A stretch of 63,762 nucleotides of DNA, the filler included, from Folioceros fuciformis (taxonomy: Eukaryota): assembly GCA_049999805.1 (NCBI GenBank). It is 19 parts of 19 records of this genome, joined end to end, with 100 filler letters (N's around TTAATTAATTAA, not from the genome) between each part and the next. Parts side by side here need not be neighbours in the genome. Positions count along the whole stretch, not along the records: positions 1 to 9,574 come from JBNGIO010003905.1; 18 more parts are not named here. One strand, written 5' to 3'. This document shows positions 1 through 53,453 of this stretch, one piece after another (within the stretch, counting starts at the first letter, position 1; each line of letters opens with the position of its first letter). The position numbers and the translations under genes were made by a program. The notes below the pieces were generated by a model, which was not told the DNA's origin, did not search any database, and was given only the letters and a program-made list of their open reading frames with translations.

Positions 1-1489
1 GCTCAGCCACCAAGGGTGAACAGTTGCAGGGGAAGACCTAGCGGGCGACCATCCAGCAAGGAAGAGGCGGCGTCCACAGATTGAAGATCAGACATCCTCT
101 GAAGTCTCAGGATAGTCTAAGAGGTGGTAGATCCTTGTGGTGGTAGGGCCAGCTCATTGGTGGCAGGTTGTGCTAGAAGTCTAAATAAGTGGCTGGTGAT
201 AGCTGGCTAGGCTATTAAAATAATATTTCTCAAGTTAGAGAGAGGGGAAGTCAGAGAGAGAGAGAGAGGCTCCTATAAGATCAGGTGAGCCTGTAGGAGG
301 AAGGAGTCATTCACTTTGGGAGTCAGTCTATCTCTTTGTGAGCTCTTGGAGGTCCTCTCTTCATGAGCTCTTGTGGTCTGTCCCTGCTTGGTTTAGGACT
401 TGCAGTGTGTTGCCGGCTGTGCAACGTCTAGTAGGATCGCAAGCCGTGTGTTGCCGGCTGTACCGTGTCTGGTAGGATCGCAGGCAGCGTGTTGCCGGCT
501 GTACAGTGTCTGGTAGGATCGCGGGCAGCGTGTTGCCGATTGTATAGTGTCTGGTAGGATCACAAGGTGTAATGACCAGGGTNNNNNNNNNNNNNNNNNN
601 NNNNNNNNNNNNNNNNNNNNNNNNNNNNNNNNNNNNNNNNNNNNNNNNNNNNNNNNNNNNNNNNNNNNNNNNNNNNNNNNNNCTCTTGTGGTCTGTCCCT
701 GCTTGGTTTAGAACCTGCAGTGTGTTGCCAGATGTGCAACGTCTGGTAGGATCGCAAGCCGCGTGTTGCCGGCTGTATAGTGTCTGGTAGGATCGCAGGC
801 AGCGTGTTTCCGGCTGTACAGTGTCTGGTAGGATCGCGGGCAGTGTGTTGCCGGTTGTATAGTGTCTGGTAGGATCACAAGGTGTAATGACCAGGGTGTA
901 GGGGCTTGCCCCTAGCTCTTGATTGTAAAGGGTGTGTCTTTCTCTCAACCTGTCCACTCTTGTTCCTTGCTTGGTCAAGTGCTGTAGGCCGGCCATGTCT
1001 CATGGCGTCTGGTAAGGTTGTGGGGAGGAGATATCCAAGAGGGGAGTGTGTTCCCTTCTTCCTTTTGTTTGGGGGTTAGTCTAGTGACTCTTGCCGGGTA
1101 GGAGGAGTCAGTAGGGAAGTGTAGAAGGTAGTGGTGTCATTGTTAGTTGTTGGTGTTGGTGCTGGAGTGAGGGAGTGAGTGAAGTGTGTGAGGGAAGTCG
1201 CAGATCTAAGAGGTTAGAGTCGTTGTAGTGACTGGAGTGAGTTTGTGGGCACCGAGAGAGGTGCAGCTGACCGCCGGACAGCGAGGCCTGTCCTACGCCT
1301 GATCAGAGCTGGAGGGGAGCCCTCGAATCCATCATCGAGTTGATCAAGTCCGACCCTCCATCCACAGCAGCAAGGAACCCCATCGCTCCTTCGTGGGAAC
1401 GAAACCCAATGTCTCAACGACAATGGGATAAGTGTGGCCACTAAAGGTGGAACCCATTGGCAATCAGTGCCCGGGGTTTTGCCTCCACA
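1..1489 (+). mobile_element. Large LTR-like repeat, 'family A' (3' part, ends ...GCCTCCACA)
   Basis: 1112-1489 is near-identical to 37212-37589, and similarity stops at GCCTCCACA(A) in both. About 880-1040 is the reverse complement of 24826-25000. The opposite terminus TGTGAACCTC is seen at 39085 and, reversed, at 10052 and 26297. Confidence 0.7.
405..880. repeat. 41-bp tandem repeat (CGTGTTGCCGGCTGTACAGTGTCTGGTAGGATCGCAGGCAG) inside family A LTR
   Basis: Units start at e.g. 488 and 529. The array spans an N100 gap whose flanks overlap. Confidence 0.85.
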
Positions 1490-2081
1490 AGGCACAGTCG
1501 GCCAAATCATGGTCGTGGAAGGGTGAGACCCACAGGATAATTCTTGAGTGCAGAGGCTGGGGGTGGAGAGTGAGTAGTGGTGGGTAGAGTGTGCGACGGG
1601 AGGTCCGTAACTGGCTAGGGGTAGTGTGACCCCGAAAACGCCGTTCAGGTTCTGAGTGAAATCGGAAGGAGGTAACTTGGGTTAGAGATAGAGAGAGACT
1701 AAGAGTGGGACCCACCGAGGTAGTGGAGTCCACTACCGTTGTAGAGCCACGATCAAGGTAGTCGAAAGCCGAGGTAGTAGAAGCACCTCCGAGGTAGTAG
1801 AAGGTCGGTAGTTGTAGTGCCCCCCCCTCTAGTAATCGAGAGGGTCTGAGAGGTAGTGCAGAGTTGCGGTAGCTGAGCCGTCACGGAGGTAGTGGTAGAT
1901 GACCTGCGGGTAGAGGAGCGGAAGGTAGGTAAATCCTGACCTTTGGTAGTAACTGACTTTAAGGAAAAACCTGTGTTATTTGGGACAAATCATGCCCTTG
2001 GGAGCAAATCCCACGGCTACAACAACATAGAGGGCTTGTGTGGACCTCGCGGTACCCCCGGGTACAATGTTTTCCCCCACA
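1490..2081 (-). mobile_element. LTR-like repeat 'family B', terminal segment
   Basis: Reverse-complement homolog of 5409-5760 and direct homolog of 38500-38900. All three share a terminus of the form TGTGG(G/A)GGAAAA(T/C)ATTGTACC. Confidence 0.7.
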
Positions 2082-5000
2082 TCTACCATTGCCAGGATAG
2101 GTGCGTTGCTGAGTGTGGCCTTGATGTTTTCGAAGGCGTGGAGCGCTGCTGTTTCTAACAGGAGAGGTTTCCCTCTAGGTTGGCGAAGTGTGTTGGTAAG
2201 CAGGACAACTATCTTGCTGAAGTCTTGTATAAAGTGCTTGTAAAATCCCGCCATGCCGAGGGACCTTCAGAGTTGCAGGAGGTCCTAGGAAACTAGCCAC
2301 TCCTAGATAGCTTTGATTTTTTGAGTGTCGACCTGGATCCCTTGGGCACTGACAACGTGCCCAAGGTATTTGCACTCAGTTTGCATAAAGACACATTTGC
2401 TCTTCTTTGCCAGCAGTTTGTGGTTTCGCAAAATTGTTATGACACGTTCCACTAACCGGTAATGGGTCTCTACATCAGGGGAATAGATCAATCTATCGTC
2501 GAGGAAGACTTCCACTCCCCGCCCGAGCAACGGCTGCAATATCTCCTGCATCAAACATTGAAAAGTGGTGGGGGCGTTGGTGAGTCCGAAAGGCATGACT
2601 ACAAACTCGAAATGTCCGTGTCTGGTACGAAAAGAGGTCTTGTACTCATCCCCTTCATGAATTCGGATCTGGTGAAAACCGGAACGGAGGTCTATCTTCG
2701 TGAAGAGGGTGGCTCCATGCACCAAGTCCAGGATCTCGTCGATCCGCGGCATCTAGTAAACATTCCTCACTGTTGCTTTATTTAAGGCCCGATAATTGAT
2801 GCAAAGGCGCCAGGTGTCGTTTGGCTTGGCTACAAGCAGGATTGGGGCACCGAATGAGGAGACAGACGTTTTGACAAACCCCCTCTACAGGAGGTCATCC
2901 ACTTGCCTCTTGATCTTCTCGCTTTCTACTGGTGAGGTTCTGTAGGGGGGAATGCTAATCGGTTTATGCCCAGGTAGGAGTTTGATCTAATGGTCAACAG
3001 CCCGTTTGGGAGGGAGTTCTGTGGGCTCTGCAAATACATCTCGGAAATTGTGTAGTAGTTTTCTCATAGGTTTAGGTAACTGATCTTCCTGTTCCTTGTG
3101 TTTCATGGCCCGGGATTTAGCGGTCCCCTCCAGTGGTAACACTTGTTTTAGCTGTGCTATGTATAGAAAATGCCCTCAGGTTGTGGCTTTATTCAAAGCT
3201 GAAATTGCATACAAGTGTTTGTCAGGGAGGCGGCTCTCCCCTTGCATAACATGTTGGGCGTTTGTCGTTAGCACCACCTCGTTGGTGGCCCAATCCAGTT
3301 TCAGGTGGTCAGAATGGGTTGTCATCCACGGTTTTCGAAGGATTATGTCGTGGCAAAGGTTGGGCATGACGGTGAACCGGAGCTTCTCCTCATCCCCCCT
3401 TGGGAAGGTAAGGACCGCCTCTGTCCACTCTTCCTTGCTGGTGTCTCGTTTGTTGAGAGTTGTAACCATCATCGAATAGTGACCGGTGTCATGTATTTCT
3501 AGTCCAGCTCTCCCTGTTGCCGACCGGGCGATGTAATTGTGGCTGGCTCTTGAGTCGAGTAGCGCTGTGGCTTTCTATCCGACATGCCTACCAAGAGTTT
3601 TACAGGAACATGGTCGAGCTCCATCATAGTGTGCCCTTCCTGGTGCATACGGATTGCTGCCGCGAGGGCTTGGGCTGTGTCGTCTTGGAGTTCGGGCTCT
3701 TCCTCGATCCGGATAGCATGACTGTCCTTGGCAAGTGGGCCGCCCGAAGTCTGAGGGGCCTGCCTTGTCTCTTTGAGCCAAGCAAAGAAATCTTTGCGAT
3801 GGGGGCAGGTCTTGCAGGCGTGGTCTGGTGAGGCACATGTAAAACACAACTTCTTCTTGTAGTACGCCTATTTCTCCTGTGCCGTCAGAATCTTGAACGT
3901 GGGTTTCTTGTCGGTGGCTTGTACAGACTTGCTTCCCTGATTTGCTGTGGGTATGGGCAGGTATTTATACTTGTTAGTCCCGTAGTTGATAGCTGCCTTC
4001 ATAGCGTCTACCAACGTAGCAGGACTCGTCTAGTACACATATGCCCTGAGCTCCTACCTCAGCCCGTTGATAAATTTTTCCACCTTCTGTTCTTCATCTA
4101 ACCTTGGCATGTCGAGGGTGAGCTGCAGGAATCGATCGCAGTACTCCTGGAACGTAGTTTGCTGAGTGATGGTTCTGAATTTGTGATATAAGTCTCTCCG
4201 GTGGTTGACTGGTAGGAATTGTGTCAAAAAGGCCTGGCGGAACACCGCCTAGGAGAGGATAGGTGGTGCCAACCCGAGGTCTACTTGACGTTCTCGCTGT
4301 CGCCACCAACGATACGCATACCTTTCGAGGTTCATAACACAAAATTGGATCCTCTAGAGGTCGTCCTTGTCACTTGACCTGAGGTACTAATCCATCTTGT
4401 CAATCCAATCATAGGTGTGTTGTGCTTCCTTGTTTGAGCCATCGAAGGTTGTCGTTTTGATCTTCCGTTGCAGGTCCTTGTCCAACAAGCTCCTGGATTT
4501 GAATGGGATTAGCTCGTCTTCCACAGATCCGAGTTTTAGTGAGAACCTACCTTTTTGGGCTTCATAGTTCTCGTATCGCATCAAATGAAGCCTTCCTACC
4601 AAGGCTTGAATTTCTGGATTCTCCTTCTCGCTTGGCTATAGGTTAACCAGTAGTTTCTTGAGAGCTTCCTCGTCATCCCCCGCCCAGGGCCCCTATCGCG
4701 TCCCGGGTCTGGCCTCAGCTCGAGAGCTGGGGCGGCCGAGGCCCCCGCTAATCGCTTCCGCCAATCTCCTAAAATCTGGGTGATTTGTTTCAAGATGTGT
4801 GAGGGGAATGGTTTCTTGGTGTTTCGTACCTAACCCGTCACCCGGTTGGGACTGTTGCTGCAAGGCTGGTGTGTCCTGCTCTATGTGGCCTAGCGCCTGT
4901 AGCACACCTTCAAGTTGGCGCTCTACCCACGCCCGGCTTTCGCCTACTTGGGTCTCGATGCGGTGCATCGTGGCCTCTACCTCCTTCAACTGCCAATCTT

Positions 5001-5408
5001 GGGAAGCAAGGGTACTAGTGATTTCTTCACACATACGTTCCACTCTTGTGGTGCGGGTTTCCCAATCCTACCATTGACTAACCTCGTTCCTTCTCGTCCA
5101 ATCGTCTTGCATTGCAGCCGTGCAGAATCCTCCTCCTCGGTCACGATCTGGGGACGGCCGGCCCACGGCGGCTTCGCCTTCTTCACGTGCTGCCCTCCTC
5201 CGCGATTGGGGTGCCATCGAGTGACCACGTTTTTGAGGTCGGCCGCACTGCCTAGGAGCGTTGTCCATCTCGTACTTTGTGTTTGATCCGGCTTGGTGTT
5301 GGCGTCCAGCCCTTCTTCTCACCCGACCCCCAATGCCCAATAGGGAGGCACCATCGTCGCTCTCGATGGAGATTGCCTTCTCCATTTTTGCCAAAGGTAT
5401 GACGTCCC
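2082..5408 (-). mobile_element. Ty3/gypsy retrotransposon internal region (decayed gag, zinc knuckle, partial protease, RT, start of RNase H)
   Basis: Gag 'FRQAFLTQFLP...QKVEKFINGL'; CCHC 'CFTCASPDHACKTC'; 'HDIILRKPW'; RT 'MPRIDEILD...[15 protein letters not shown]...MPFGLTNAPTTFQ...VFLDD'. Many stop codons. Confidence 0.93.
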
Positions 5409-6345
5409 TGTGGAGGAAAATATTGTACCCAGGGGTACCACGAGGTCCACCCAAACCCTCTATGTCATTATAGCAGTGGGATTCGATCTCAAGGGAATGA
5501 TTTGTGCCAAATAACACAGGTTTCCTCTAAAAATCGGTTCTAACCTAGGTCAGGCTTCACCTACCCCTAGTTTCTCTACCTACAGGTTCCACTACCACTA
5601 CCCTTTGGTGGCCTAGCTACCACATCGCAGCTTTACAACTCCCAGACTAGTTCCACCACCGAGGTAGGGGTCTCTACAACTACTGGTTCTTCTATGACCG
5701 GTAGGGGCCTCCACAACCGGTAGTAGTTTCCACTACCATGGTGGGTCCCACCTCAAGTTCCTAACTAATACGCGTTGATTCTGGTATCACCGCGGGTTTC
5801 TACGTGGCTTTTCCAGGTAGAAAGTCAGGGTTACTTAGTTCTCCGCAACCACCCGCTTATACAGCCTAGTCCATGGTGTCCACACTTCACGCCCTGCACA
5901 CACGCACATACAGTTCTTCCACTCAAGTTGATGCCAACCACACAGACCTGTCTCACAATCGCACTCACTCCCGGTAATCGTCGTGTTCCTTCAGCAGTCT
6001 CACACCCCTTGGACTTACAACAATATTACCACAACTCACGTCCTCATAGCACAACTAGACCGCGTCCGTTCATACAAACACCTTCATATCCACACTCAGC
6101 AACCACGACTCCTCAGACAGTTTTCTCACGGCGTCTCTTACCACAGATTCAGCAACATCTCCACACACACACTTAAAGATCCTTTAGTATCTCCTCCACG
6201 ACTTTGTTAGCACTCCAGCTCTCTTAGACACACAACGTTCACAACACACTCACTCGCAGGCAACAGTTCGGGAAGTAAGAGAAGAAGAAACACTCCCTCC
6301 TCTCTTAGGTCGTTCCCGCAGCTTCCACCAGGGTCCAGGATACCA
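5409..6345 (+). mobile_element. LTR-like repeat 'family B'
   Basis: Starts TGTGGAGGAAAATATTGTACC. Homologous to 1490-2081 and 38500-38900 (reverse). Right boundary is approximate. Confidence 0.65.
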
Positions 6346-6759
6346 GTAAGGGGGGGAAATCATTTGCCTAAAGGAGACCAGGTGAAACAAGGGGCTGACC
6401 AAGTTTCCAGCCAACATCACAGTTTAGAAACATCCAAGTATGATCAAGCTGTCCGATTACTGACTATGGTGTTAACACACAAGGAGCTACTGAAGAGGGT
6501 ACACAAGGCACCCTTACTCAGCCTGCAAGATGTGGGAATTGAAGAAGCTGCTGTAGGCATCATGTTGCAGCCTTCACAAGCTGAGATGTTGTTGCCTGAT
6601 CTTGATCAGTCAGGGCTTGATTCTCTTGTTGCAGGCAAGAGGGTGAAAGCTGCATTGTTGTCTTGTGAAAGTCAGGGTTTGCCAGTCGTACAACCCACAA
6701 ATCGGTGCAAGGCCACAATTGGCAATGTGCTGGTGGACAATCGTGGCAGCCACGTGCTG

Positions 6760-7035
6760 GTGAATGGGTTTGCGCCCAGAGCAGTGTTGTTGGACACGGG
6801 GGCACAACCAGTCATCATAGGGAAGGTTATGGCTGCTAGGCTGAGATTGGAAGGGAGTGCTCTACAGCCGTCTTCCTGGAATATTTGCACAGCCTAAGGG
6901 GCGGTTGAACCTGTAAAAGGGGAAACCACCCAACCAATCAAGATTACTTTGAAGCCCAACACAGCGGATGAGGTGAGCTTGACGGTGCACTGCCTGGTCA
7001 CAGGGGCCACCAATTATGACATCCTATTGGGATAG
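6760..7035 (+). pseudogene. Retroviral-type aspartic protease domain
   Basis: 'RAVLLDTGAQPVIIG' catalytic motif, and 'NYDILLG' C-terminal motif in the same frame past the TAA at 6895. Confidence 0.88.
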
Positions 7036-7524
7036 GAATTTTTGTTCCCTCCAGGAGTTTCCATTGACAACTGGACAGAACCGGCCTTTTACAGGCCAGA
7101 TTGGCAGCAAGGGGGAAAGTGCATTGCTTACCTGCCCCTGGATTTGCATGGCGCCACACAAGCAGCCGAGGCTACGCTAGTGGTAAGGCAGGCCTGCATG
7201 GTGTAGATTGAGCCATGGGAGGATGGGACAATGCCCTCATTACTACCAGACCATTGAGCTCAAGTATGGCTAGTTGAATATGGAGAAGACGAGGAAGTTC
7301 TTGCCCCTGATCCTGAAGAAGATGCGCTTGGAGCGCAATTGCATTCTTAGGTCCTATCCGGGGTTCTCACAGCCAGCAAGGAGCGTCTACAGCGAGCTCA
7401 AGAGATAGTCGCTCGTGTTATGCAAGTGTTGCAGCAGGCTTTCACAGACCTAGCCACAGCGGAGGCAGCAGATGTTTCTCCTATCCAACAGGCTGTTATT
7501 ACTTGGCAGCCTACATCACAAGGG

Positions 7525-8490
7525 ATTACCTTGGTGGAGCTGTTTGGGGGCTTGTGCACTGGTCTAGAGGCAGTGCTGAAGTGCAGCATCACTGTTTCCA
7601 GATACATCTACTGTGATGCCTGCCCAGCTGTTAGGCACATTGCAATCCATTGAGTGCAATTGCTAAAGCAGTTTCCTCAACAATTTCCTCGGCAGGCCAG
7701 CAAGAGCATGTGTAATGCTCTTCCACATAACATTCGATATATCCAGCAAGCACACATCTAGGCCATTGGAAATGTGAATTTGCTAATTGCAAGATGGGAG
7801 TGCCAGGGTCTGTCCCAAGCTAGGAAAGGAGCAGGGCTGCACGACAGTCGTTTAGGCTTATTTAGGGATCTGGTGCAAGTACTTCGATGGGTCCAGGATT
7901 ACCACCCACGAGTGGCTTATTTGCTGGAAAATACACAAGCTTAACTGGATGCTCGTCCACAATTACGCTAAGACATGGGCTATTCAGCAGGTCATTGGTA
8001 CGCCATTCACCATGGATGCTGCTCAGGTGGGCAGCTATGCTCACAGACTTAGGAATTATTGGACAAATCTGGCCCCATTACCTTTTTAAACTTGGCCTTA
8101 TAGGAGTAGCAGCGGGACCCTACTCGACTCCTATAGGATGTGCTGGATGACAATCATACCCCCAAACATCTTCATGAAAAAAAAAATCATACCCCTAAAC
8201 CTGTCACAGCCAAGGAGAGGGCTCCATGGTTCCCTACCAACACACCAGGTTAACCAAGGAGGACCTTGCCCACGGTGGTCAGTTATCCTCGTTCCTATAC
8301 ATATAGGAATAACGGTCCTGGTATGCTCTTTAATGAGGATACCAAGGTGTGGGAGGAACCTACAGTGGAGGAGAGAGAACGGATAATGGGTTTTCATACT
8401 CACAACACAATAGCACCCCAAGCTTCCAGGGCACAGAGATTTGCAGCACTTGGCCATGCTATGGATGTGAGTGCTTTAACTTGGCAGCTT
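7525..8490 (+). pseudogene. C5 cytosine DNA methyltransferase catalytic domain (retrotransposon-borne)
   Basis: Motif I ITLVELFGGLCTG (7525); motif IV NLLIARWECQGLSQARKGAGLHDSRLGLF (Cys codon 7801); motif VI AYLLENT (~7915-7935); motif VIII DAAQVGSYAHRLRNYWTNL (8015-8071, shifted frame); motif IX EPTVEERERIMGF (8356); motif X QRFAALGHAMDV (8434). Confidence 0.9.
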
Positions 8491-8795
8491 AGCCTTTGCT
8501 TGGCTTTCCAGGTGTTCACCAGACCTTGGGACCATGGTTCCCACATCCAGACCCTATCCTATCATTCGGAAGTAGTTCATCTGCCATTTCTTGGATTTCG
8601 TTACCAATCCTATCAGCTCGACGTAGGGGGGGGGAGGACATGTCTCCCAAACTTGTTTTTGCTGCTTTGGAGCTGGATTCAGGACTAGGACTGTCAGCAG
8701 CTATCAAACCTCCACATACTACGGAGGCCTTTGATTGGATTATGGGTCCTCAGCTAGATTCAAGGCAGAAGCAGCGGATTCGGGCCCTGCTTTAA

Positions 8796-9335
8796 CAATA
8801 CTCGGATTGTTTTGCCTTCAGCATGAAGGATTTGAAGAGGTACAATGTTATGACGTCCAGGATCAACCTCAACACTACTGAGCCAATCTATAGGTGCAGG
8901 TACAGGTTGAGCCAATATGAATGGGAGATTGTGGAAGCACGCTGCCAAGAGTTGTATCGGGCTAGACTGATCAGGCCTCCTAGTTCTAATTACGTAGCCG
9001 CTACTGTCCTTCCACCCAAGAAGGATAGCCAGGGCTTTTGGACTGAAAAGCAAATGTGTGGGGACTATCGTCCCATCAATGCAGCAACAGCACTTGATAG
9101 TTATCCTATGCCTACGCCGGAAGAGTTGTTTGACAACATTGGACAGTCCAAATTCTTCTCTATGTTCAATCTGCGACAGGGTTTCAACCAGGTGTCAGTG
9201 GCAGAGGAGGATATACCCAAGACAACATTTCATGGAGCTCACCAGCTGTGGGAGTGGCTGGTCATGCCTTTTGGGTTCAAGAATGCACCAGTAACCTTCC
9301 AAAGGGTCATGGACAAGGTATTGGCAGGGGCCCGT
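8796..9335 (+). pseudogene. Ty3/gypsy reverse transcriptase, N-terminal part
   Basis: 'AATVLPPKKD...MCGDYRPIN...YPMPTPEELFD...LRQGFNQ...WLVMPFGFKNAPVTFQRVMD'. Cut before YxDD by an AT-rich insertion starting TGTTA at 9336. Confidence 0.93.
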
Positions 9336-9574
9336 TGTTAAGCATAATTAATGTTGAGATTAATTAGTGCTAATCCAGCTTATTGAGTTTGTACTAATTA
9401 GTGGTAAGAGTGATTAAGGTTATGATTAATATATATATATAGCTTATTAGACTTTGCTATGTTAGGCAAAAAAGTATTGTAGGGTTTGGGGTCATTTATC
9501 CCATATTGGGCACGAAATGAGAGTGCCACCCATAGGTCCATAAAAGAAGGGATGAACCCACTTAGTATTTGCAG

Positions 9575-9674
9575 NNNNNNNNNNNNNNNNNNNNNNNNNN
9601 NNNNNNNNNNNNNNNNNNTTAATTAATTAANNNNNNNNNNNNNNNNNNNNNNNNNNNNNNNNNNNNNNNNNNNN
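9575..9674. other. Artificial scaffold spacer N44-TTAATTAATTAA-N44 (first of 18)
   Basis: The same spacer starts at 12009, 14275, 16919, 23444, 24726, 27074, 28316, 30190, 31608, 33452, 37112, 40274, 44155, 47088, 53354, 59895 and 62461. It provides stops in all six frames. Confidence 0.97.
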
Positions 9675-12108: not shown

Positions 12109-13062
12109 GCTGTGGATGAGCAGGTTCCGGAGGAGATGTGGTCTGGAAAGAAGCCATCATACAAGTATCTACCTGTGTTTGGCTGCGAGGCATACTACCA
12201 TGTTCCGAAGGAGTTTCGGGACAAGTTGGCACCCAAGTCCAAGAAATGTATTTTTCTTGGCTATGGTGAATCTGGTGTGATGGGATACCGTCTGTGGGAT
12301 CCAGAGGCCAAGAGGATGCTTTGCAGCAATGACGTGGTCTTCAATGAGACCAAGATGCACAAGAAGCCTACTCCAACTATGGAGGTCTTTCAAGAAGATG
12401 GACTTGACCGTCCCGCGCAGGTTGAACGTCGTGATGTGCAGGAACAAGTTCCTCCACTCATACAAGAGGAAAGAGTACAACCAGCTCCGGTCGAGGTGCC
12501 AGTGCTTCATAGGTCAGGAAGGATCTCACGTCCTCCTGATAGGTATGTTGCATCTCTTGATTATGTCATGCTGATGGATTGTGGGGAGCCTTCTTGTTAC
12601 CAAGAGGCATGTCAGTGACTGACAAGGACAAGTGGGAGAAGGCGATGCAGTCGCAGATGGATTTTCTCCACAAGAACCAAACTTGGGAGTTGGTTCGGTT
12701 GCCTAAGGGCAAGAAGGCATTGCCATGCAAATGGGGGTATAAGATGAAGGACATACCCCATTATGGCAAACCTAAGCACAAGGCACGATTGGTTGCTAAG
12801 GGTTTTAAGCAACAGCAAGGTATTGACTTTGATGAGATTTTCTCACCAGTTGTCAAAATGACCACCTTGCGATGTGTTCTTGGTCTGGTTGCAAGGAACA
12901 ACATGGAACTTTGTTCAGATGGATGTGAAGTCGGCATTTCTGCATGGTGGTCTCCAGGAAGAGGTATATATGCATCAACCAGAGGGCTTCATTCAGAAGG
13001 GCAAAGAGCATCTAGTGTGCAGGTTGAAGAAGAGCCTTTATGGCTTGAAGCATGCACCCAGG
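12109..13062 (+). mobile_element. Ty1/copia pol fragment (integrase C-terminus to RT)
   Basis: 'VFGCEAYYHVP...KLAPKSKKCIFLGY...GYRLWD', 'TWELVRLP...KARLVAKGF', '[11 protein letters not shown]...LKKSLYGLK'. A different LTR (TGTTGAG...) inserts at 13063. Confidence 0.95.
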
Positions 13063-13196
13063 TGTTGAGTTATCGAGCTCTATATGAGCTAAACTCATGT
13101 GGTGTTAGTTATCCCAGTTGGGTTCATACTAGACTAGTTCTAGTTATTAGTGAACTTAGGATAGTGTAGATTATCCCATATTGAACNNNNNNNNNN

Positions 13197-14274
13197 GCTG
13201 TGGATGAGCAGGTTCCGGAGGAGATGTGGTCTGGAAAGAAGCCATCATACAAGTATCTACCTGTGTTTGGCTGCGAGGCATACTACCATGTTCCGAAGGA
13301 GTTTCGGGACAAGTTGGCACCCAAGTCCAAGAAATGTATTTTTCTTGGCTATGGTGAATCTGGTGTGATGGGATACCGTCTGTGGGATCCAGAGGCCAAG
13401 AGGATGCTTTGCAGCAATGACGTGGTCTTCAATGAGACCAAGATGCACAAGAAGCCTACTCCAACTATGGAGGTCTTTCAAGAAGATGGACTTGACCGTC
13501 CCGCGCAGGTTGAACGTCGTGATGTGCAGGAACAAGTTCCTCCACTCATACAAGAGGAAAGAGTACAACCAGCTCCGGTCGAGGTGCCAGTGCTTCATAG
13601 GTCAGGAAGGATCTCACGTCCTCCTGATAGGTATGTTGCATCTCTTGATTATGTCATGCTGATGGATTGTGGGGAGCCTTCTTGTTACCAAGAGGCATGT
13701 CAGTGACTGACAAGGACAAGTGGGAGAAGGCGATGCAGTCGCAGATGGATTTTCTCCACAAGAACCAAACTTGGGAGTTGGTTCGGTTGCCTAAGGGCAA
13801 GAAGGCATTGCCATGCAAATGGGGGTATAAGATGAAGGACATACCCCATTATGGCAAACCTAAGCACAAGGCACGATTGGTTGCTAAGGGTTTTAAGCAA
13901 CAGCAAGGTATTGACTTTGATGAGATTTTCTCACCAGTTGTCAAAATGACCACCTTGCGATGTGTTCTTGGTCTGGTTGCAAGGAACAACATGGAACTTT
14001 GTTCAGATGGATGTGAAGTCGGCATTTCTGCATGGTGGTCTCCAGGAAGAGGTATATATGCATCAACCAGAGGGCTTCATTCAGAAGGGCAAAGAGCATC
14101 TAGTGTGCAGGTTGAAGAAGAGCCTTTATGGCTTGAAGCATGCACCCAGGTGTTGAGTTATCGAGCTCTATATGAGCTAAACTCATGTGGTGTTAGTTAT
14201 CCCAGTTGGGTTCATACTAGACTAGTTCTAGTTATTAGTGAACTTAGGATAGTGTAGATTATCCCATATTGAAC
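13197..14274 (+). repeat. Exact duplicate of 12109-13186 across an N10 gap (assembly artefact)
   Basis: Identical sequence and identical ORF translations at offset 1088. Confidence 0.9.
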
Positions 14275-22170: not shown

Positions 22171-22413
22171 AGGATTTTTTGAGTTAATAAGAAGGTTTAC
22201 TAAAAAGAAATATTCTTATCATGTAGGTTTTTCTGTCTTTCCCTATGTAAGGGACGCATGCTTGAAAACATAACCACCTTTCACAAAATCACGAAGGTTT
22301 GCTTTGGACTCCCAGCAAGGATTGTTTAAGCTCTCAACAGGTACACTTTTTATAGCTCAACTAGATATATATATACATTGAAAGTATTTGAAGGCTGCTA
22401 GCACTTCACCGAC

Positions 22414-23109
22414 ATGGAGTCTAAAGACTCTTTTAAAGTATCTAATTTCAAAAGTAGGATGGAGTCCACAACTACCTTTATGACTCAATGTATCAATTCT
22501 ATGGGCATAAATTTGACAAATATACAAAAAATAGATGAAGGCTCATATGGTGAAATATATAGGTGTAGCAACAATGTGCTGAAGGTAATAGCCATGGAAA
22601 GTGCAAGTGACATTCAAAACGAGTTTGCAATTGCAAAGATCTTGTCAAAGTTACAAGACCTTAAGAACTCGTATTTTTGCAAAACCTTCATGAGAAATAT
22701 ATGCGAAAAGGAATATGAGGGACAATATTCTAGTGAGCTCTCTATAGCTAGGGCATTATGGTCAAATGCTGCTTCTTCAAGTCATCTTGCCAACTATCTA
22801 TACGGCTAGAAATTTAAGTTAGCAGTGCAAGAAGATAGTGGGGTTACTCTAGGTGCTATCAAATTTGAAAACTTGAAAGAAGTAAAAAGTACACTATTGC
22901 AAGTGATTTTAGCGTTAGAGGTTGTGGAAGCAGCATTCTCATTTGAGCATCGAGATTTACATGATCGCAATATTCCTATATCTCGAAGAAGAGATGAGAC
23001 CACAGCTGCAAGATTTCGGATAAATGACTGTGAAAAATGGATCAACGTTTATGGGATACATGTTAGAATTATTGACTTTAGATTATCTCGACTTCAGTTA
23101 AATGAACAT
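22414..23109 (+). pseudogene. Intronless haspin-like atypical protein kinase remnant
   Basis: One frame with a single TAG at 22807: 'KIDEGSYGEIY...VLKVI', 'LLQVILALEVVEAAFSFEHRDLHDRNI', 'YGIHVRIIDFRLSRL'. Matches haspin signatures FEHRDLH and IIDFTLSR. Truncated by a repeat insertion. Confidence 0.82.
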
Positions 23110-23346
23110 GTGAGGGTCGTTTTAGTGATTGGAGTGAGTTTGTGGGCACCGAGAGAGGTGCAGTTGTTTGCTGGACAGCGAGGACTGTCCCACGCCTGAT
23201 CGGAGCTGGAGGGGAGCCCTCGAATCCGTCATCAAGTCGGTTGAGTCCGACCCTCCATCCAAAGCAGCTAGGAACCCCATCGCTCCTTCGTGGGAACAAA
23301 ACTCAATGCCTCAACGACAATGGGATAAGTGTGGTCGCTAAAGGTT
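23110..23346 (+). mobile_element. Family A-related LTR fragment interrupting the kinase
   Basis: Homologous to 1215-1450. Confidence 0.75.
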
Positions 23347-37211: not shown

Positions 37212-37589
37212 TAGGGAAGTGTAGAAGGTAGTGGTGTCATTGTTAGTTGCTGGTGTTGGTGCTGGAGTGAGAGAGTGAGTGAAGTGAGTGAGGGAAGTCG
37301 CAGATCTAAGAGGTTAGGGTTGTTGTAGTGACTGGAGTGAGTTTGTGGGCACCGAGAGAGGTGCAGCTGACCGCCGGACAGCGAGGCTTGTCCTACGTTT
37401 GATCGGAGCTGGAGGGGAGCCCTCGAATCCATCATCGAGTCGATCAAGTCCGACCCTCCATCCACAGCAGCAAGGAACCCCATCGCTCCTTCGTGGGAAC
37501 GAAACCCAATGTCTCAACGACAGTGGGATAAGTGTGGCCACTAAAGGTGGAACCCATTGGCAATCAATGCCCGGGGTTTTGCCTCCACA
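37212..37589 (+). mobile_element. Family A LTR 3' end
   Basis: Near-identical to 1112-1489. Confidence 0.8.
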
Positions 37590-47065: not shown

Positions 47066-50000
47066 CCTGCACTTAATTGCCCGTTACNNNNNNNNNNNNN
47101 NNNNNNNNNNNNNNNNNNNNNNNNNNNNNNNTTAATTAATTAANNNNNNNNNNNNNNNNNNNNNNNNNNNNNNNNNNNNNNNNNNNNCCCTGAGGCTGCG
47201 AACCTCAGTCCCGCCCAGGGGACAACACCTGAAACTGGCATGGCTCATTGCACCACTAGCATTCCAGATTTGGAGCCGGTGTACGGAGCAACGCCTCCAA
47301 CGGAGAGATCGGGATTCAGCAGGCTGGGTGTCCGACTGACACTGCTCGAACTCCAGCTCCCAGGAGATACTTGCAATCTATTTATTTACTTATGGAAAAA
47401 ATAAGATAGAATTATCCAACCCTCAAGAGGTGAAACAAACCACCGAGACAGACCTGGAGGCATGAAACCTTTCTTGTTCTTGGATCACTGGACTTTCCAT
47501 GGATAGGATAGAAGAGGCCAAGCCCAGAATGCTACTGGCTATTAAAACTATTTCTGAAGGAGTCTTTTCAACCTTTCATACGTGCTCCTGGCTAAGGGAC
47601 TTAATCTCGATCATCAGCCTGGGTTCTCTTCAAGATCCTTGAGTCTCCTTAAATTTTGATATCCAAATGCGGAGCAGACCCTAATTTCATCTCCTGAAGT
47701 TCACGTGCACTTGAGAATCATGCAAGTACACTATACTTGGAACCGATTTAGTGTATAACAACGATTGAGGTCCAACAGTGTAGGTGTGTGGTACCCGAAG
47801 CAGAAAACCATCCTGCGTACAGTACCAAGTACCACTCACCATCCATACCTGTTACGCTTTCCATGCTGCCGATCCAGAGCTCCAATGCCAGAGATGCAAC
47901 TAGTCATGGTAGCCTTGGGGTGTCGTATTTCGTTGGAGACCTACATTTTCCTCCCCCCCCCAGAATTAGGTTCGAACCTGGAGGTGCGAATAATTTGGTA
48001 CTGCAAGTGGGGAAATGTGAGTTCCCTCTAGAGCTCGTCAAACATCCCTCTTGTCCCAACGGTGGTAGGAGCCATACCTGAGGGGCGGAACCAAAAATCA
48101 GTATTACATTCTCTGGGCTTCATGTGCATTTTGCCTGAGCAAACAAAACCAGAATCCAAGAGATGTCCCACCAACACATGCCCAACAAATGTCCTGGTCC
48201 CTAAGAGACAAACGACGGGAGGTTGCCTAGCTCAAAGGTCATGACTTCCCTACAAACATTGGAAAAAAGAAGAACTGGGAAAATTTCCTCAGCATAATCG
48301 CTGTTTCATCACTCTTCCTGTCGGATGGAGAAAGGTACGACGGTTATCATCCACGGAAATCTCCAGCTGCAAACACGACAGCTTTCCACAAGTCCTCGAT
48401 GCACAGGCACCAGTTGAGGGCGGGGGATTGCATATACTCAGAACCCAAGCCCCACACGTCATTAAAAATACATCGGCGTGAGGGAGTTGGCTGATTGACC
48501 ATGTGGCCAGGAAAAGGCTTCCAGAAACCCACTCAGGAGGCTTTGGCAGAGTGAACTTGCACAGCACTAAACTGATTTGCAATAGACCCAACTCTCATTC
48601 ATGCTCAGGGACATCCACCACCGTTCACTGAGCCTCTTCTGAAAGACACTCGAACTTGAGGTGTCAGAAGTAGCATAATCGTCACTGCAGAAGACCATTC
48701 GTAGACGATGCATCCGCACAACTGACTCAAATACGCCCACAAGACTTAGCGCAGGCTTGACGCAANNNNNNNNNNNNNNNNNNNNNNNNNNNNNNNNNNN
48801 NNNNNNNNNNNNNNNNNNNNNNNNNNNNNNNNNNNNNNNNNNNNNNNNNNNNNNNNNNNNNNNNNAGAGCTGTAGCCTAGTCTGGACCGATATCTGGAAG
48901 AATCGAGTTGATATCATCTGTGTCTCGAAAAAAGCTTGGCGGGAAGGACCCAAATTTCCTGCACGGCGTCAAGCAACAGGCGAGAGCTCAGAACACCCAT
49001 CGACGCAACGACAGCACCTGAATTTCCCCACGGGCCACCCACTGTGTTCTGAGAGCTGGCGGCTGTGCTGGCGTCGGGGCACATACCCTACTTGTTAGGT
49101 ATATGCAGGTCGAGGTGTCTAGTGCTGATTCCCAGTTCCGGCAGGCAGCTGAAGTTTGGGCTCTTCACTCGGTAACCACAACGACAACCTGAACTCCAAG
49201 TCCACGTAGAAAACGGCTGCCAGGCAAAACTCGTAAAACCCGATTCACAGACACGCAGAACTCCAGCTGCTGCACTGCCCATGCTGGCCCACTCCGTTCA
49301 CACGCCCCAGCTGAGGTCTCTCCCGACACCCTGCATCTCAAACAAATGGTCCAGACGTCTGAAGGTGCAAAGCAGAGCATGGCCATTTCCGTGGCCACGC
49401 CGCTGCTTTTACATTTGCTGCACATGTGCCTGGCCAGTGCCCACGACAATCCTTAAAGCCCAGGGGGGTTTGGGTCTCGGTCCTAACCTAAGTTAGGCCC
49501 GGGACTCGGAATTCGGCTGACCCCGGCGACTAGGCTCGGCAAGAGGACGTCATCTCTTTGCTCCTCGCTCGGTCAGTGGCGGAGCCGCTCGGGCGATCAC
49601 GACCAGGAAGAGCCAATTCGGGGCCGGCTCTGCGAATTCCGAGCACCGCATTTTGTGTTCTGCCCGCACTTGGTCGATGCGAGACATCGCAGATTGAGGC
49701 GCGTGGTGAGCGCGATTATCAGAAGGGCCCCGAGTAGGGCAGATTGAAGGGCGAGGATGGAGGTGTCTAGACTCATTTGGCTGGGAGGGATGTGTTGTGA
49801 TCATTGGGAGTAGGAGCAGGATTAGGCTTAGGCTTTGGAGGTTGTGTGGCCCTCCCTGTTCTTTGGCGGAAAATGAGCTTCTGGCACTCAGCCTGTGCTG
49901 GTTAGTGTCCGGATTGCAGACAGGCTTTGTTGGAATTGCGTGGAGCCGTGGAGTTTTGTTCGGGATCGGCTGTGGTCTGTCATGAATGTGCAGGTGGCTG

Positions 50001-50158
50001 TGCCCCCACTTGTTCAGAGGTTTACTGGATACCCTGACTCGTGAAGCTAGTCGGATGATCTTGGAGTTTCGAAAGGCAGGCCCTCGAGATCTGGATTAGG
50101 AACCTAGAGCTGCTTTAGCCACAGGAGCTTTGGAGGTGGAGTTACAGGGGGTGCCAAA

Positions 50159-52997: not shown

Positions 52998-53353
52998 ATG
53001 CCGATGAGCAGGGAGCGAGGGCGCAGGCCCCGGGTGTACCGTGGAGTGCGGATGCGGAATTGGGGGAAGTGGGTGGCGGAGATCCGCCTGCTGGGGCAGA
53101 ACAACAAGGGGCGGATTTGGCTAGGGAGCTTCGACACCGCGGAGATGGCGGCACGGGCGTACGACGCTGCCGCGCTCTGCATGCGGGGCCGCAGCGCCCG
53201 ACTCAACTTCCCGGCCTCTATTCTCATGCTGGAGCAGCTGCACATCTGCCCCACCCCCGCTGCCTCCAGCGCCTGCATGACCAAGGAGGACATTCAGGCT
53301 GTGGCGGCGGCCGCGGCGGCCACGGCGGCGCCTGCGCCTACGGTGACCGCATC
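52998..53353 (+). CDS. AP2/ERF transcription factor, DREB A-5 / ERF group II-like (3' truncated at scaffold end; start could be as far upstream as 52722)
   Basis: '[18 protein letters not shown]...[34 protein letters not shown]' plus the downstream '[14 protein letters not shown]' motif. Confidence 0.92.
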
Positions 53354-53453
53354 NNNNNNNNNNNNNNNNNNNNNNNNNNNNNNNNNNNNNNNNNNNNTTA
53401 ATTAATTAANNNNNNNNNNNNNNNNNNNNNNNNNNNNNNNNNNNNNNNNNNNN

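What the first reader, a model, noticed from the sequence alone, without database searches (positions are those of the whole stretch)
6364..9335. Gypsy retrotransposon carrying its own C5 DNA methyltransferase between protease and RT, in a land-plant assembly
Seen in sequence: reading through stops, one pol frame runs protease (LLDTGAQ...YDILLG), a linker, then six C5-DNMT motifs in canonical order (I VELFGG, IV W-E-C-Q + GLHDSR.GLF, VI LLEN, VIII DAAQVGSYAHRLRNYWTNL, IX ERERIMGF, X QRFAALGHAMDV), then gypsy RT. The ORF track splits the domain into unlabelled pieces and misses motifs IV, VI and VIII. Established knowledge (recalled): DNMT-bearing retrotransposons were reported in Symbiodinium and the charophyte Klebsormidium (de Mendoza et al. 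2018, Nat Commun). I do not know them as a characterised feature of embryophyte genomes. Inference: this lineage persisted into, or entered, a land plant. A virion-packaged, protease-released DNMT could methylate new cDNA or target sites, for self-silencing or host mimicry.
Basis: partly seen in the sequence, partly recalled or inferred. Interest (0 to 1): 0.93.

Follow-up and report, generated by a model that had tools for sequence, protein, structure and literature searches.

The report
Dead gypsy retrotransposon carrying a DNMT3-like methyltransferase
This is a broken, truncated copy of a gypsy-type jumping gene that carries its own DNMT3-like DNA cytosine methyltransferase between protease and reverse transcriptase, a kind first described in a freshwater alga and shown here to have relatives in moss and liverwort genomes.

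Summary
On the + strand, 6631-9335 reads protease, linker, a C5-DNMT domain with motifs I, IV, VI, VIII, IX and X in canonical order, then the start of a gypsy RT. It is collinear with intact gag-PR-DNMT-RT-RH-INT polyproteins.

The copy is dead. It has 13 in-frame stops and three frame changes. It has no gag and no LTR, and a high-copy repeat cuts the RT at 9335/9336.

The domain is DNMT3-like (best PDB match DNMT3A, E 7e-24). The element is related to a Klebsormidium nitens protein with the same PR-DNMT order, so it belongs to the known Gypsy-DNMT3 kind (de Mendoza 2018).

The new part is the range. The nearest named relatives are in the liverwort Calypogeia fissa and in three Sphagnum mosses. 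A PR+DNMT tree puts the window sister to that clade at 97/94. Nine literature searches found no report of land-plant copies.

The window's own host is not proven. The window is 19 unplaced scaffolds joined by artificial linkers.

cDNA self-methylation is inference, not shown. Verdict: a new member of a known kind, of moderate interest.

The parts
6256..6630 (+). Pol region upstream of the protease (frame 1). The 5' edge of the homologous part; no gag lies upstream of it.
   Evidence: P0006 residues 134-606 align from 6256, but its N-terminal part alone gives only E 0.005 over 6256-6555. P0024 aligns from 6493. None of 8 gag-bearing N-terminal queries gave a match better than E 0.005 anywhere in 1-9574.
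6631..7137 (+). Retropepsin-type aspartic protease, frame 1, with 2 in-frame stops.
   Evidence: gag-asp_proteas 30.0 bits (cut-off 28.2) on the read-through. It aligns to the PR of P0003, P0013, P0293 and P0299. Stops at 6895 and 7033.
7138..7470 (+). PR-DNMT linker, frame 1, with 3 in-frame stops.
   Evidence: Aligned continuously with P0293, P0283, P0008 and P0014, which span PR to DNMT. Stops at 7204, 7255 and 7348.
7471..8526 (+). DNMT3-like C5 cytosine methyltransferase domain, pseudogenised. Motif I 7537-7551; IV 7795-7809 (Cys codon 7801-7803); VI 7927-7935; VIII 8030-8068; IX 8371-8394; X 8449-8466. The reading frame goes 1 to 2 near 7948 and back to 1 near 8087. There are 7 in-frame stops and a private 33-nt insert at about 8164-8196.
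   Evidence: Translations. Alignment with 18 relatives. PF00145 22.1 bits against a cut-off of 22. phmmer hits. A family profile matches DNMT3A at E 7.3e-24. Stops. Contigs of X1, X2 and X4 skip 33 nt between 8163 and 8197 (table 5).
8527..8684 (+). DNMT-RT junction, where the frame changes from 1 to 3.
   Evidence: P0013 residues 962-1299 align to 7483-8526 in frame 1 and residues 1304-1517 to 8685-9329 in frame 3.
8685..9335 (+). N-terminal part of a Ty3/gypsy reverse transcriptase, frame 3, with 1 in-frame stop. It is cut off at 9335.
   Evidence: RVT_1 51.9 bits. It is 62.6% identical over 179 aa to the RT of the DNMT element L002, 46-47% to P0013 and P0018, and 37-42% to the ordinary gypsy RTs of the same window. 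Stop at 8793.
9336..9574 (.). High-copy repeat that interrupts the RT. The scaffold ends at 9574.
   Evidence: Summed contig depth rises from about 130 to about 54,000 in X1 in the last bin. Contigs of X4 and X5 begin at 9336 (tables 2, 7, 8). The N run starts at 9575.

Best explanation
Positions 6256-9335 (+) are a decayed fragment of an LTR retrotransposon of the Gypsy-DNMT3 kind. It is truncated at both ends.

Shown for the family: the intact family encodes one Gag-Pol polyprotein in the order gag(CCHC)-PR-DNMT3-like methyltransferase-RT-RNase H-integrase. In the moss/liverwort-type relatives a PHD finger follows the integrase. The methyltransferase is a non-rearranged DNMT3-type domain. 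Its catalytic Cys (motif IV), ENV Glu, RxR and RE residues are conserved across the family. In the land-plant-type copies it evolved under about the same constraint as the RT, so it was a working, selected part of the element.

Inferred mechanism (my odds about 0.4): the domain travels in the Pol polyprotein into the virus-like particle. The protease frees it, or it stays attached to the RT. It then methylates the newly made cDNA, or DNA at the integration site. New copies would enter the genome already carrying the host's heterochromatin mark. That could be self-limitation or mimicry of host DNA.

Shown for this copy: it can no longer do anything. It has 13 in-frame stops and three frame changes. 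It has no gag and no LTRs, and the RT is cut by a repeat.

Inferred from phylogeny: the lineage runs from streptophyte algae (Klebsormidium, Closterium) into land plants (Calypogeia, Sphagnum). The window's copy branches beside the moss+liverwort clade.
For: Anatomy and collinearity:
- PR, DNMT and RT of the window align in the same order to P0013 (2188 aa). Pfam finds zf-CCHC, protease, DNA_methylase (46.1 bits), RVT_1, RNase H and integrase in P0013.
- They also align to Calypogeia P0293 (residues 2-513 on 6694-8352, E 5.6e-92) and to locus L002. In L002, PR-DNMT-RT-RH-INT are all in frame 1, and one open 847-aa ORF holds DNA_methylase (37.8 bits), RVT_1 and RNase H.

DNMT3 type:
- A profile of 16 family members hits DNMT3A at 7.3e-24 and DNMT3B/3C at about 1e-21. 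DRM scores 5.8e-12 and M.HhaI 4.7e-11. DNMT1 is not among the 56 matches.

Conserved catalytic columns in 134 full-length domains:
- Cys 131 of 134.
- ENV Glu 132 of 134.
- RxR 129 and 125 of 134.
- RE of motif IX 127 and 132 of 134.

Selection:
- NG86 dN/dS among 59 metagenome copies has a median of 0.37-0.38 for the DNMT (1619 pairs with dS 0.1-0.4).
- For the RT it is 0.32-0.40 (538 pairs, 34 copies).

Kinship with the known kind:
- Klebsormidium nitens KFL_014220010 (P0299) scores E 7.7e-24. Its PR and then its DNMT align to the window in that order.
- 3 of 7 long loci examined (L002, L011, L029) have the A1...B1-A2-B2 split direct repeats. The legend of Fig. 4c in PMC5890265 notes a DIRS-like repeat layout for KnitGypsy-Dnmt3.
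- The window's RT is closer to RTs of DNMT-bearing elements than to co-resident gypsy RTs.

Land-plant range:
- 8 of the 120 best hits listed carry species names, and all are Calypogeia fissa (5) or Sphagnum (3), on contigs of 4.6-66.6 Mb.
- Sphagnum P0371 has PR at 31 bits and DNA_methylase at 23.3 bits. P0371 and P0338 align to both the PR and the DNMT of the window.
- In the careful tree of PR+linker+DNMT N-half (29 rows, 388 columns), the window joins Calypogeia, Sphagnum and 5 unnamed rows at 97/94.

More than one copy in the organism:
- Summed contig depth over the element is 27-134 in X1, against about 12 over the neighbouring unique gypsy.
- A run of another sample and study with the same species label (X4) holds contigs about 90% identical over PR, DNMT and RT.
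Against: - Pfam support on this copy is marginal (22.1 against 22 bits).
- The Klebsormidium protein P0299 itself gets no Pfam family at E<=0.001. Kinship with it rests on alignments of 34% (PR) and 25% (DNMT) identity.
- The DNMT-only careful tree leaves the window unresolved. It sits in an open polytomy inside the PR-DNMT group, which has 92/85 support.
- No gag, LTR, RNase H or integrase of this element is in the window, so its full architecture is inferred from relatives.
The window is a concatenation of unplaced scaffolds.
- The closest relatives by identity (P0042 64% and P0036 60% over the PR only; P0014 and P0008) are unnamed.
- No intact land-plant-type copy was seen. The longest ORF in any of 80 loci is 847 aa, and 0 of 59 gapless DNMT regions lack a stop.
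- On mechanism, KnitGypsy-Dnmt3 gave no de novo methylation in yeast, which the authors call inconclusive (PMC5890265, section 10).
- 81 of 134 family members have Glu rather than the canonical Pro before the catalytic Cys. The effect of this on catalysis is unknown.
- The element's CpG depletion (observed/expected 0.32, against 0.67 in the neighbouring gypsy) is not specific. In 13 long metagenome loci the elements average 0.44 and their flanks 0.24.
Confidence: 0.78

Rival explanations
1. The scaffold is contamination from a streptophyte alga growing on or with the sequenced plant. On this reading the element says nothing about land plants.
For: - The window is 19 unplaced scaffolds joined by artificial linkers, so no plant gene is physically linked to the element.
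- Closterium and Klebsormidium carry the same kind of element.
- The relatives closest by identity are unnamed Logan proteins.
- The DNMT-only tree does not resolve the window's place.
Against: - The PR+DNMT tree joins the window to the Calypogeia+Sphagnum clade at 97/94, apart from Closterium and Klebsormidium.
- The RT is 62.6% identical to the moss/liverwort-type L002 and 43-47% to the algal-type RTs.
- Both ends of the scaffold are repeats with summed depth about 5e4-2e5, against about 12 for unique sequence. They are also present in runs of two other studies with the same species label (X4, X5).
- The repeat at 1112-1411 recurs at 97% identity on another scaffold of the window, at 37212-37511.
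- Related contigs of the element occur in X4, which is a different sample and study.
- Independently of this window, Calypogeia and Sphagnum copies lie on Mb-scale contigs.
Confidence: 0.1
2. The methyltransferase domain is real and selected but does not methylate cDNA. It could act on RNA, as proposed for SymbioLINE-Dnmt. It could methylate host DNA around the insertion. Or it could serve as a non-catalytic DNA or chromatin binding module.
For: - KnitGypsy-Dnmt3 showed no DNA methylation in yeast, and the RNA idea is raised in the discussion of the same paper (PMC5890265, sections 10 and 11, read).
- The Pro of the Pro-Cys motif is replaced by Glu in 81 of 134 members.
- An earlier scan note (e1-2850094, unchecked) reports a catalytically dead DNMT fold in a diatom gypsy element.
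Against: - The catalytic Cys, ENV Glu, RxR and RE residues are kept in 125-132 of 134 members. That would not be expected of a mere binding module.
- The closest solved relatives are the de novo DNA enzymes DNMT3A/B/C. DNMT2, which acts on RNA, scores only E 2.8e-4.
- SymbioDIRS-Dnmt3 domains methylate CG in yeast (PMC5890265, section 10).
Confidence: 0.15
3. A one-off chimera: a host DNMT3 pseudogene, or an assembly mis-join, that merely lies between fragments of a gypsy element.
For: The assembly is poor: there are 55 N runs and identical contigs duplicated across N10 gaps. The copy has frame changes on both sides of motif VIII.
Against: - The same PR-linker-DNMT-RT order occurs in single proteins or ORFs from other sources: P0013, P0293, P0300, P0371 and the 847-aa ORF of L002.
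- 28 of the 150 best hits show DNMT on the PR side of the RT.
- 512 of 599 metagenome candidates were confirmed as relatives.
- There is no N within 683-9574.
- Contigs of independent runs cover PR, DNMT and RT.
Confidence: 0.02

Closest known systems
KnitGypsy-Dnmt3 of the charophyte Klebsormidium nitens (de Mendoza et al. 2018, PMC5890265; sections 9, 10, 11 and 15 read)
   Same: - An intronless DNMT3-type domain inside the Pol ORF of a gypsy-type element.
- The PR-then-DNMT order, seen in K. nitens protein P0299.
- A DIRS-like split-direct-repeat layout, seen here in relatives L002, L011 and L029.
- Purifying selection on the DNMT. The paper reports Ka/Ks below 0.2. Here the median among decayed copies is about 0.37.
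   Different: - Only 25-34% identity to the K. nitens protein.
- The window's copy groups with moss and liverwort copies, not with Klebsormidium.
- The land-plant-type relatives end in a PHD finger. I could not see Fig. 4c, so I cannot say whether KnitGypsy has one.
- This copy is dead and truncated.
- I cannot confirm that P0299 is one of the paper's own elements; supplements were not available.
SymbioDIRS-Dnmt3 and SymbioLINE-Dnmt of Symbiodinium (same paper)
   Same: Retrotransposons that captured a C5-DNMT into their coding region. The SymbioDIRS domain is also DNMT3-type, and it methylates CG de novo in yeast.
   Different: They have a different backbone (DIRS with tyrosine recombinase; LINE), and the paper regards them as independent acquisitions. 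The element here is a gypsy-type RT (RVT_1), and its relatives carry a DDE integrase (rve).
Host de novo methyltransferases: animal DNMT3A/B/C, plant DNMT3 (with DUF3444) and DRM
   Same: Best sequence match of the family profile (DNMT3A 7.3e-24). Motif order I-IV-VI-VIII-IX-X is not rearranged.
   Different: - No PWWP/ADD or DUF3444 partner domain. The domain sits inside a Pol polyprotein.
- DRM has rearranged motifs and scores much lower (5.8e-12).
- Motif IV is mostly E-C rather than P-C.
EpiLTRs of Cymbomonas and Euglena (bioRxiv 10.64898/2026.05.21.726589; passages read)
   Same: LTR retrotransposons that carry a cytosine DNMT together with a chromatin-reader domain.
   Different: Per the preprint, their DNMT is sister to DNMT4 and sits at the 3' end of pol, with an adenine methyltransferase and a chromodomain. 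Here the domain is DNMT3-like and lies between PR and RT. No adenine methyltransferase was seen, and relatives carry a PHD finger instead of a chromodomain.

Membership tests
Ty3/gypsy (Metaviridae) LTR retrotransposon | Pol order PR-RT-RNase H-integrase, with a gypsy-type RT | tested here: inconclusive
   In the window PR precedes the RT (RVT_1 51.9 bits). RNase H and integrase are missing because the RT is cut at 9335. Collinear relatives P0013 and L002 have the full order.
Ty3/gypsy (Metaviridae) LTR retrotransposon | gag with a CCHC knuckle upstream, and terminal repeats | tested here: not met
   No gag match better than E 0.005 for 8 N-terminal queries on 1-9574. One search's repeat scan (minimum 150 nt) found no pair of direct repeats flanking the element. 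The copy is truncated at both ends. Relatives do have CCHC and repeats.
Gypsy-DNMT3 elements (KnitGypsy-Dnmt3 type) | A C5-DNMT domain inside the Pol reading frame of a gypsy element | tested here: met
   PR-linker-DNMT-RT is collinear with single proteins or ORFs P0013, P0293 and L002.
Gypsy-DNMT3 elements (KnitGypsy-Dnmt3 type) | The DNMT is of the DNMT3 type, with motifs not rearranged | tested here: met
   Family profile against PDB: DNMT3A 7.3e-24, DNMT3B/C about 1e-21, DRM 5.8e-12, M.HhaI 4.7e-11. Motif order is shown. No full DNMT phylogeny with host enzymes was built here.
Gypsy-DNMT3 elements (KnitGypsy-Dnmt3 type) | Sequence kinship with the Klebsormidium nitens element | tested here: met
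   P0299 (K. nitens KFL_014220010) scores E 7.7e-24. Its PR (34% identity) and DNMT (25%) both align, in order. However, P0299 has no Pfam hit at E<=0.001 and sits on a long branch in both trees.
Gypsy-DNMT3 elements (KnitGypsy-Dnmt3 type) | DIRS-like split direct repeats (A1 ... B1-A2-B2) | not testable with these tools
   The window's copy lacks both ends. Among relatives, 3 of 7 long loci examined show the layout (L002, L011, L029), L014 shows only the A pair, and 3 show none.
Gypsy-DNMT3 elements (KnitGypsy-Dnmt3 type) | [quoted passage not shown] | tested here: met
   For the moss/liverwort-type copies only: median dN/dS 0.37-0.38 for the DNMT against 0.32-0.40 for the RT. The window's copy itself is a pseudogene.
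C5 cytosine DNA methyltransferase (Pfam PF00145) | Score at or above Pfam's gathering threshold | tested here: inconclusive
   22.1 bits against a cut-off of 22 on the stop=X read-through, and 18.6-19.6 bits on shorter pieces. Relatives score 23-46 bits.
C5 cytosine DNA methyltransferase (Pfam PF00145) | Catalytic residues: Cys of motif IV, Glu of ENV, RxR, SAM-binding FxGxG | tested here: met
   All are present as residues in the window's read-through and in 125-133 of 134 family members. The residue before the Cys is Glu, not Pro. The window also has Arg at a Gly column of motif IV and His at the Asn column of motif X.
C5 cytosine DNA methyltransferase (Pfam PF00145) | Methyltransferase activity on DNA | not testable with these tools
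The published yeast assay of KnitGypsy-Dnmt3 was inconclusive (PMC5890265, section 10).
Active (intact) retrotransposon | Uninterrupted gag-pol ORF with both terminal repeats | tested here: not met
   13 in-frame stops and 3 frame changes. The copy is truncated at about 6256 and at 9335.

The most novel reading that the evidence does not exclude
Gypsy-DNMT3 elements are an old streptophyte retrotransposon lineage that crossed from algae onto land. They amplified to hundreds of copies in bryophyte-grade plants, carrying a two-part epigenetic kit: a DNMT3-type writer in Pol and a PHD reader on the integrase. Some land-plant copies may still be expressed; the roughly 90%-identical contigs in the possibly-RNA run X4 hint at this. 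If so, a transposon-encoded de novo methyltransferase acts in land-plant cells alongside the host's DNMT3, DRM and CMT. It could pre-methylate its own cDNA, and that would be testable in culturable mosses and liverworts.
Probability: 0.3. Interest if true: 0.65.

Novelty: new member of a known kind. Interest (0 to 1): 0.45.

Why it matters
Retrotransposons that carry the very enzyme hosts use to silence them are a puzzle, and their function has never been shown for the gypsy type.

So far the gypsy type was described from one alga, Klebsormidium. Finding relatives in a liverwort, in peat mosses and in this host widens the range.
- It shows the lineage is not an algal oddity.
- It gives hundreds of copies for evolutionary analysis. 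The DNMT is as constrained as the RT in those copies.
- It points to plant groups with culture methods and established methylome work where the cDNA self-methylation idea could be tested.

It also bears on annotation. Gene models in Sphagnum and Calypogeia that contain 'DNA_methylase' may be transposon fragments, not host methyltransferases.

The single copy in this window is a dead relic and has no function of its own.

Tried and rejected
- **Whole-genome search of the host.** No genome is held for this window. Copy census, a search for intact copies and LTR dating in the host were therefore impossible.
- **Rfam on the whole window.** 0 matches, so no RNA marker for the host.
- **AP2/ERF ORF (52698-53402) as a host marker.** Of 8000 candidates scored, 851 had E<=0.001 and 120 were listed. 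All the species-named ones are embryophytes, but identity is only 42-74% over the domain, so no close relative emerged. The gene also lies on a different scaffold. It is not decisive.
- **Earlier notes of this scan.** There were none for this genome or for look-alikes of P0293. One word hit concerned a diatom element.
- **Sequencing runs.** No RNA holder was listed. X4 is only guessed to be RNA, so its contigs over PR, DNMT and RT do not show expression.
- **Depth.** The depths are sums over contigs and are not a copy number.
- **The search for related loci with the broad alignment A2.** It failed for lack of a conserved stretch. The narrower alignment A3 worked.
- **DNMT-only tree.** It did not resolve the window's placement. 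The quick version had shown 98 SH-aLRT for a bryophyte grouping, which the bootstraps did not uphold. The longer PR+DNMT alignment was needed.
- **CpG depletion as a sign of self-methylation.** Rejected, because the flanks of related elements are even more depleted.
- **Search for an intact land-plant-type copy.** None was found among 80 loci.
- **Not run.** Structure prediction and complex prediction were not run, because the sequence evidence for the fold was sufficient.
- **Literature.** Nine searches found no description of land-plant Gypsy-DNMT elements. The library lacks most subscription journals, and supplements could not be opened. The species tables of de Mendoza 2018 and of PMC12344493 may therefore list such hits without my seeing them.


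Full report
**What the window is.** The 63,762-base window is not one stretch of chromosome. It holds 55 N runs. Eighteen of the gaps have the form N44-TTAATTAATTAA-N44, an artificial linker with stops in all six frames, so the window is 19 small unplaced scaffolds strung together. Several scaffolds consist of the same contig twice across an N10 or N100 gap. The element's own scaffold is 1-9574, with one N100 at 583-682. The AP2/ERF gene at 52698-53402 (Pfam AP2, 55.1 bits), the Copia elements and everything else beyond 9675 are not physical context.

**The observation.** Frame 1 of the + strand from 6211 reads a retropepsin, a linker and the N-terminal half of a C5-DNMT with motifs I, IV and VI.
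- Frame 2 carries motif VIII.
- Frame 1 resumes for motifs IX and X.
- Frame 3 carries the RT (RVT_1, 51.9 bits).

Pfam is weak on this copy. DNA_methylase scored 18.6 bits on the ORF piece and 22.1 bits, against a cut-off of 22, on the stop=X read-through. gag-asp_proteas scored 30.0 bits against 28.2.

The homology search is decisive. phmmer with the 597-residue read-through of 6700-8490 against 1.84 billion representative proteins found 1059 proteins at E<=1e-3 and 85 at E<=1e-30, the best at 2.6e-63. An alignment with 18 relatives shows every motif in register.

**State of the copy.** Along the corrected reading there are 13 in-frame stops:
- 8 in 6631-7947;
- none in the frame-2 stretch 7949-8086;
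- 4 in 8089-8526;
- 1 in 8685-9335.

There are three frame changes, near 7948, near 8087 and between 8526 and 8685. Eight gag-bearing N-terminal queries found nothing better than E 0.005 on the scaffold, so gag is absent.

At 9335/9336 the RT runs into a repeat whose summed contig depth is about 54,000 in run X1. Neighbouring unique sequence has a depth of about 12. Contigs of two other runs start exactly at 9336.

The window also has a private 33-nt insert at about 8164-8196, which contigs of X1, X2 and X4 skip (table 5). It shows as 11 extra residues. Some of the window's stops, and one frame break, lie where all sister contigs differ (tables 3 and 4), so part of the damage is private to this copy.

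CpG observed/expected is 0.32 in the element, 0.67 in the neighbouring minus-strand gypsy and 0.78 on the AP2 scaffold. Related elements in metagenome loci average 0.44 with flanks at 0.24, so I read nothing special into this.

**What it is.** PR, DNMT and RT align, in that order, to P0013. This is a 2188-aa protein in which Pfam finds zf-CCHC, protease, DNA_methylase (46.1 bits), RVT_1, RNase H and integrase.

Among the 150 best hits I mapped domains with phmmer, using the segments of P0013 as queries:
- 28 have the DNMT on the protease side of the RT, which is the window's layout;
- 77 have it between RNase H and integrase;
- 39 show the DNMT alone;
- 6 show the PR alone.

A profile of 16 family members matched 56 PDB sequences. 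The best were DNMT3A (7.3e-24) and DNMT3B/3C (about 1e-21). DRM came far behind at 5.8e-12 and M.HhaI at 4.7e-11, and DNMT1 was not listed. The domain is therefore DNMT3-like with canonical motif order.

In 134 full-length domains the key residues are well kept:
- catalytic Cys in 131;
- Glu of ENV in 132;
- the two Arg of RxR in 129 and 125;
- the second Gly of motif I in 133.

The residue before the Cys is Glu in 81 and Pro in 40. The window and Calypogeia have Glu.

**Relatives and range.** With names attached, the best hit of the window's read-through is a 557-aa Calypogeia fissa protein (P0293, E 8.8e-92). It carries both the protease and DNA_methylase domains and lies on a 66.6-Mb contig. 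Closterium proteins follow, and then Klebsormidium nitens KFL_014220010 (E 7.7e-24). In all, 10 proteins passed E<=1e-5 among 8000 candidates. The K. nitens protein aligns with its PR and then its DNMT, though it has no Pfam hit of its own at E<=0.001.

A profile of the window and its nearest relatives found 588 proteins at E<=1e-8. Of the 120 listed, 8 carry species names: 5 Calypogeia fissa and 3 Sphagnum (S. magellanicum, S. tenellum, S. balticum). The rest are unnamed. Sphagnum P0371 has PR at 31 bits and DNA_methylase at 23.3 bits. P0371 and P0338 both align to the PR and to the DNMT parts of the window. Calypogeia is a leafy liverwort and Closterium a zygnematophyte alga.

**Trees.**
- The DNMT-only careful tree (41 rows, 347 columns) leaves the window in a polytomy inside the PR-DNMT group (92/85). 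The Calypogeia+Sphagnum clade (99/99) and the Closterium clade (100/99) are clear.
- The quick version had suggested a bryophyte grouping, which the bootstraps did not uphold.
- The longer PR+linker+DNMT N-half alignment (29 rows, 388 columns) places the window as sister to Calypogeia, Sphagnum and 5 unnamed rows at 97/94. I left 7 near-duplicate rows out of that tree.

The window's RT is 62.6% identical to the RT of the moss/liverwort-type locus L002. It is 46-47% identical to P0013 and P0018, 43% to a Closterium RT, and 37-42% to the two ordinary gypsy RTs of the same window. RT and DNMT therefore tell the same story.

**Full-length relatives.** Of these, 512 were confirmed and 80 kept.

In L002, PR-DNMT-RT-RH-INT all lie in frame 1. 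One 847-aa ORF holds DNA_methylase, RVT_1 and RNase H. The integrase zinc finger, the rve core and a PHD finger follow.

L002, L011 and L029 have direct repeats in the layout A1 ... B1-A2-B2, with about 8.8-9.2 kb between the A copies. That is 3 of 7 long loci examined; L014 shows only the A pair (8.6 kb apart) and three show none. This is the split-direct-repeat layout of DIRS-like elements. The legend of Fig. 4c of de Mendoza et al. 2018 notes the same for KnitGypsy-Dnmt3.

None of the 80 loci is intact. The longest ORF is 847 aa, and 0 of 59 gapless DNMT regions are free of stops. Even so, the family was under selection while it spread. Median dN/dS is 0.37-0.38 for the DNMT and 0.32-0.40 for the RT.

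**The host.** No genome is held and run labels are coded.
- The runs that hold the stretch belong to one species label.
- X4 and X5, from other samples and studies with that label, share the scaffold's high-copy flanks.
- X4 holds contigs about 90% identical over PR (6711-7136), DNMT (8030-8466) and RT (9020-9333).
- Summed contig depth over the element is 27-134 in X1, against about 12 over the unique minus-strand gypsy. Several related copies therefore exist, but this is not a copy number.

Together with the tree, I put about 0.85 on a land-plant host and about 0.1 on algal contamination. The copy is only 35-49% identical to any named relative, so the host is none of the named species.

**How it works.** Shown: the architecture, the DNMT3-type domain, the conserved catalytic residues and the selective constraint.

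Inferred from how gypsy elements replicate (established knowledge) and from the discussion in PMC5890265:
- the domain is made as part of Gag-Pol and enters the particle;
- the protease processes it;
- it methylates nascent cDNA or the integration site.

SymbioDIRS-Dnmt3 domains methylate CG in yeast. KnitGypsy-Dnmt3 did not, which the authors call inconclusive because human DNMT3B also failed (section 10). I give the cDNA-methylation mechanism about 0.4. The window's copy itself is inert.

**Novelty.** The kind is known:
- de Mendoza et al. 2018 described it;
- a 2026 preprint writes 'streptophytes (Gypsy-DNMT3)'.

None of the nine searches found a description of copies in land plants. Supplements were closed, so species tables may hold such hits unseen. 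I rate this a new member of a known kind with an extension of range into embryophytes, and put its interest at 0.45.

Noticed in passing
window 1-63762: The window is 19 unplaced scaffolds joined by 18 artificial N44-TTAATTAATTAA-N44 linkers. Several scaffolds are the same contig twice across an N10 or N100 gap (for example 12109-13186 = 13197-14274). Gene neighbourhood across linkers is meaningless.
   Followed up: yes
window 683-1573 and 9336-9574: Ultra-high-copy repeats flank the scaffold. Summed contig depth is about 1.8e5-2.2e5 and about 5.4e4 in X1, against about 12 for unique sequence. They are also present in runs X4 and X5. One X1 contig joins 1489 directly to 9347 (27-nt side only), hinting that the 7.9-kb block sits inside one copy of that repeat. 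327-938 holds a 41/315-nt periodic repeat, and 1112-1411 recurs at 97% identity at 37212-37511.
   Followed up: partly
window 2087-5067 (- strand): An ordinary gypsy fragment without a DNMT lies head-to-head with the DNMT element: gag about 5067-4054, CCHC knuckle about 3867-3499, PR about 3574-3176, RT 2977-2087. It is at single-copy depth (about 12 in X1).
   Followed up: partly
proteins P0012, P0020, P0023 and others: There is a second architecture with the same DNMT3-like domain placed between RNase H and integrase (RT-RH-DNMT-INT, sometimes with a PHD finger). It accounts for 77 of the 150 best hits, all from unnamed sources, and forms a separate group in the DNMT tree (94/92). The catalytic Cys is kept.
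   Followed up: partly
L002:12361-13515; P0338; P0012: A PHD finger (38-40 bits) sits at the C-terminus of the integrase, where chromoviruses carry a chromodomain. It suggests a chromatin-reading partner for the DNMT. It cannot be checked in the window because that part is missing.
   Followed up: partly
motif IV, window 7795-7809, and the family alignment: The residue before the catalytic Cys is Glu in 81 and Pro in 40 of 134 family members. The canonical motif is Pro-Cys. The effect on catalysis is unknown.
   Followed up: partly
L001-L080: Every one of 59 gapless DNMT regions in the metagenome loci has 1-13 stops, and no locus has an ORF above 847 aa. The moss/liverwort-type family looks extinct, or nearly so, in those sources, despite 512 confirmed hits.
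   Followed up: yes
window 48866-53353: A separate scaffold carries an intronless AP2/ERF (DREB-like) ORF at 52698-53353 that runs into the linker. By eye, it also has a Golgi-SNARE-like C-terminal exon at about 51322-51696; this was not tested.
   Followed up: partly
window 22402-23199: By eye, two adjacent ORFs in a 30-33% GC scaffold look like a haspin-type protein kinase. The low GC contrasts with the rest of the window. Not tested.
   Followed up: no
window 53767-56814 (- strand) and 12109-14274: Copia-type elements. The first has gag, an integrase SH3-like domain and RVT_2 with long open frames. The second is a Copia fragment duplicated by the assembly.
   Followed up: partly
Sphagnum and Calypogeia gene models P0338, P0371, P0293, P0352: Annotated 'proteins' of these plant genomes that carry DNA_methylase or PHD domains are pieces of this retrotransposon family. 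They could be miscounted as host methyltransferase genes.
   Followed up: partly
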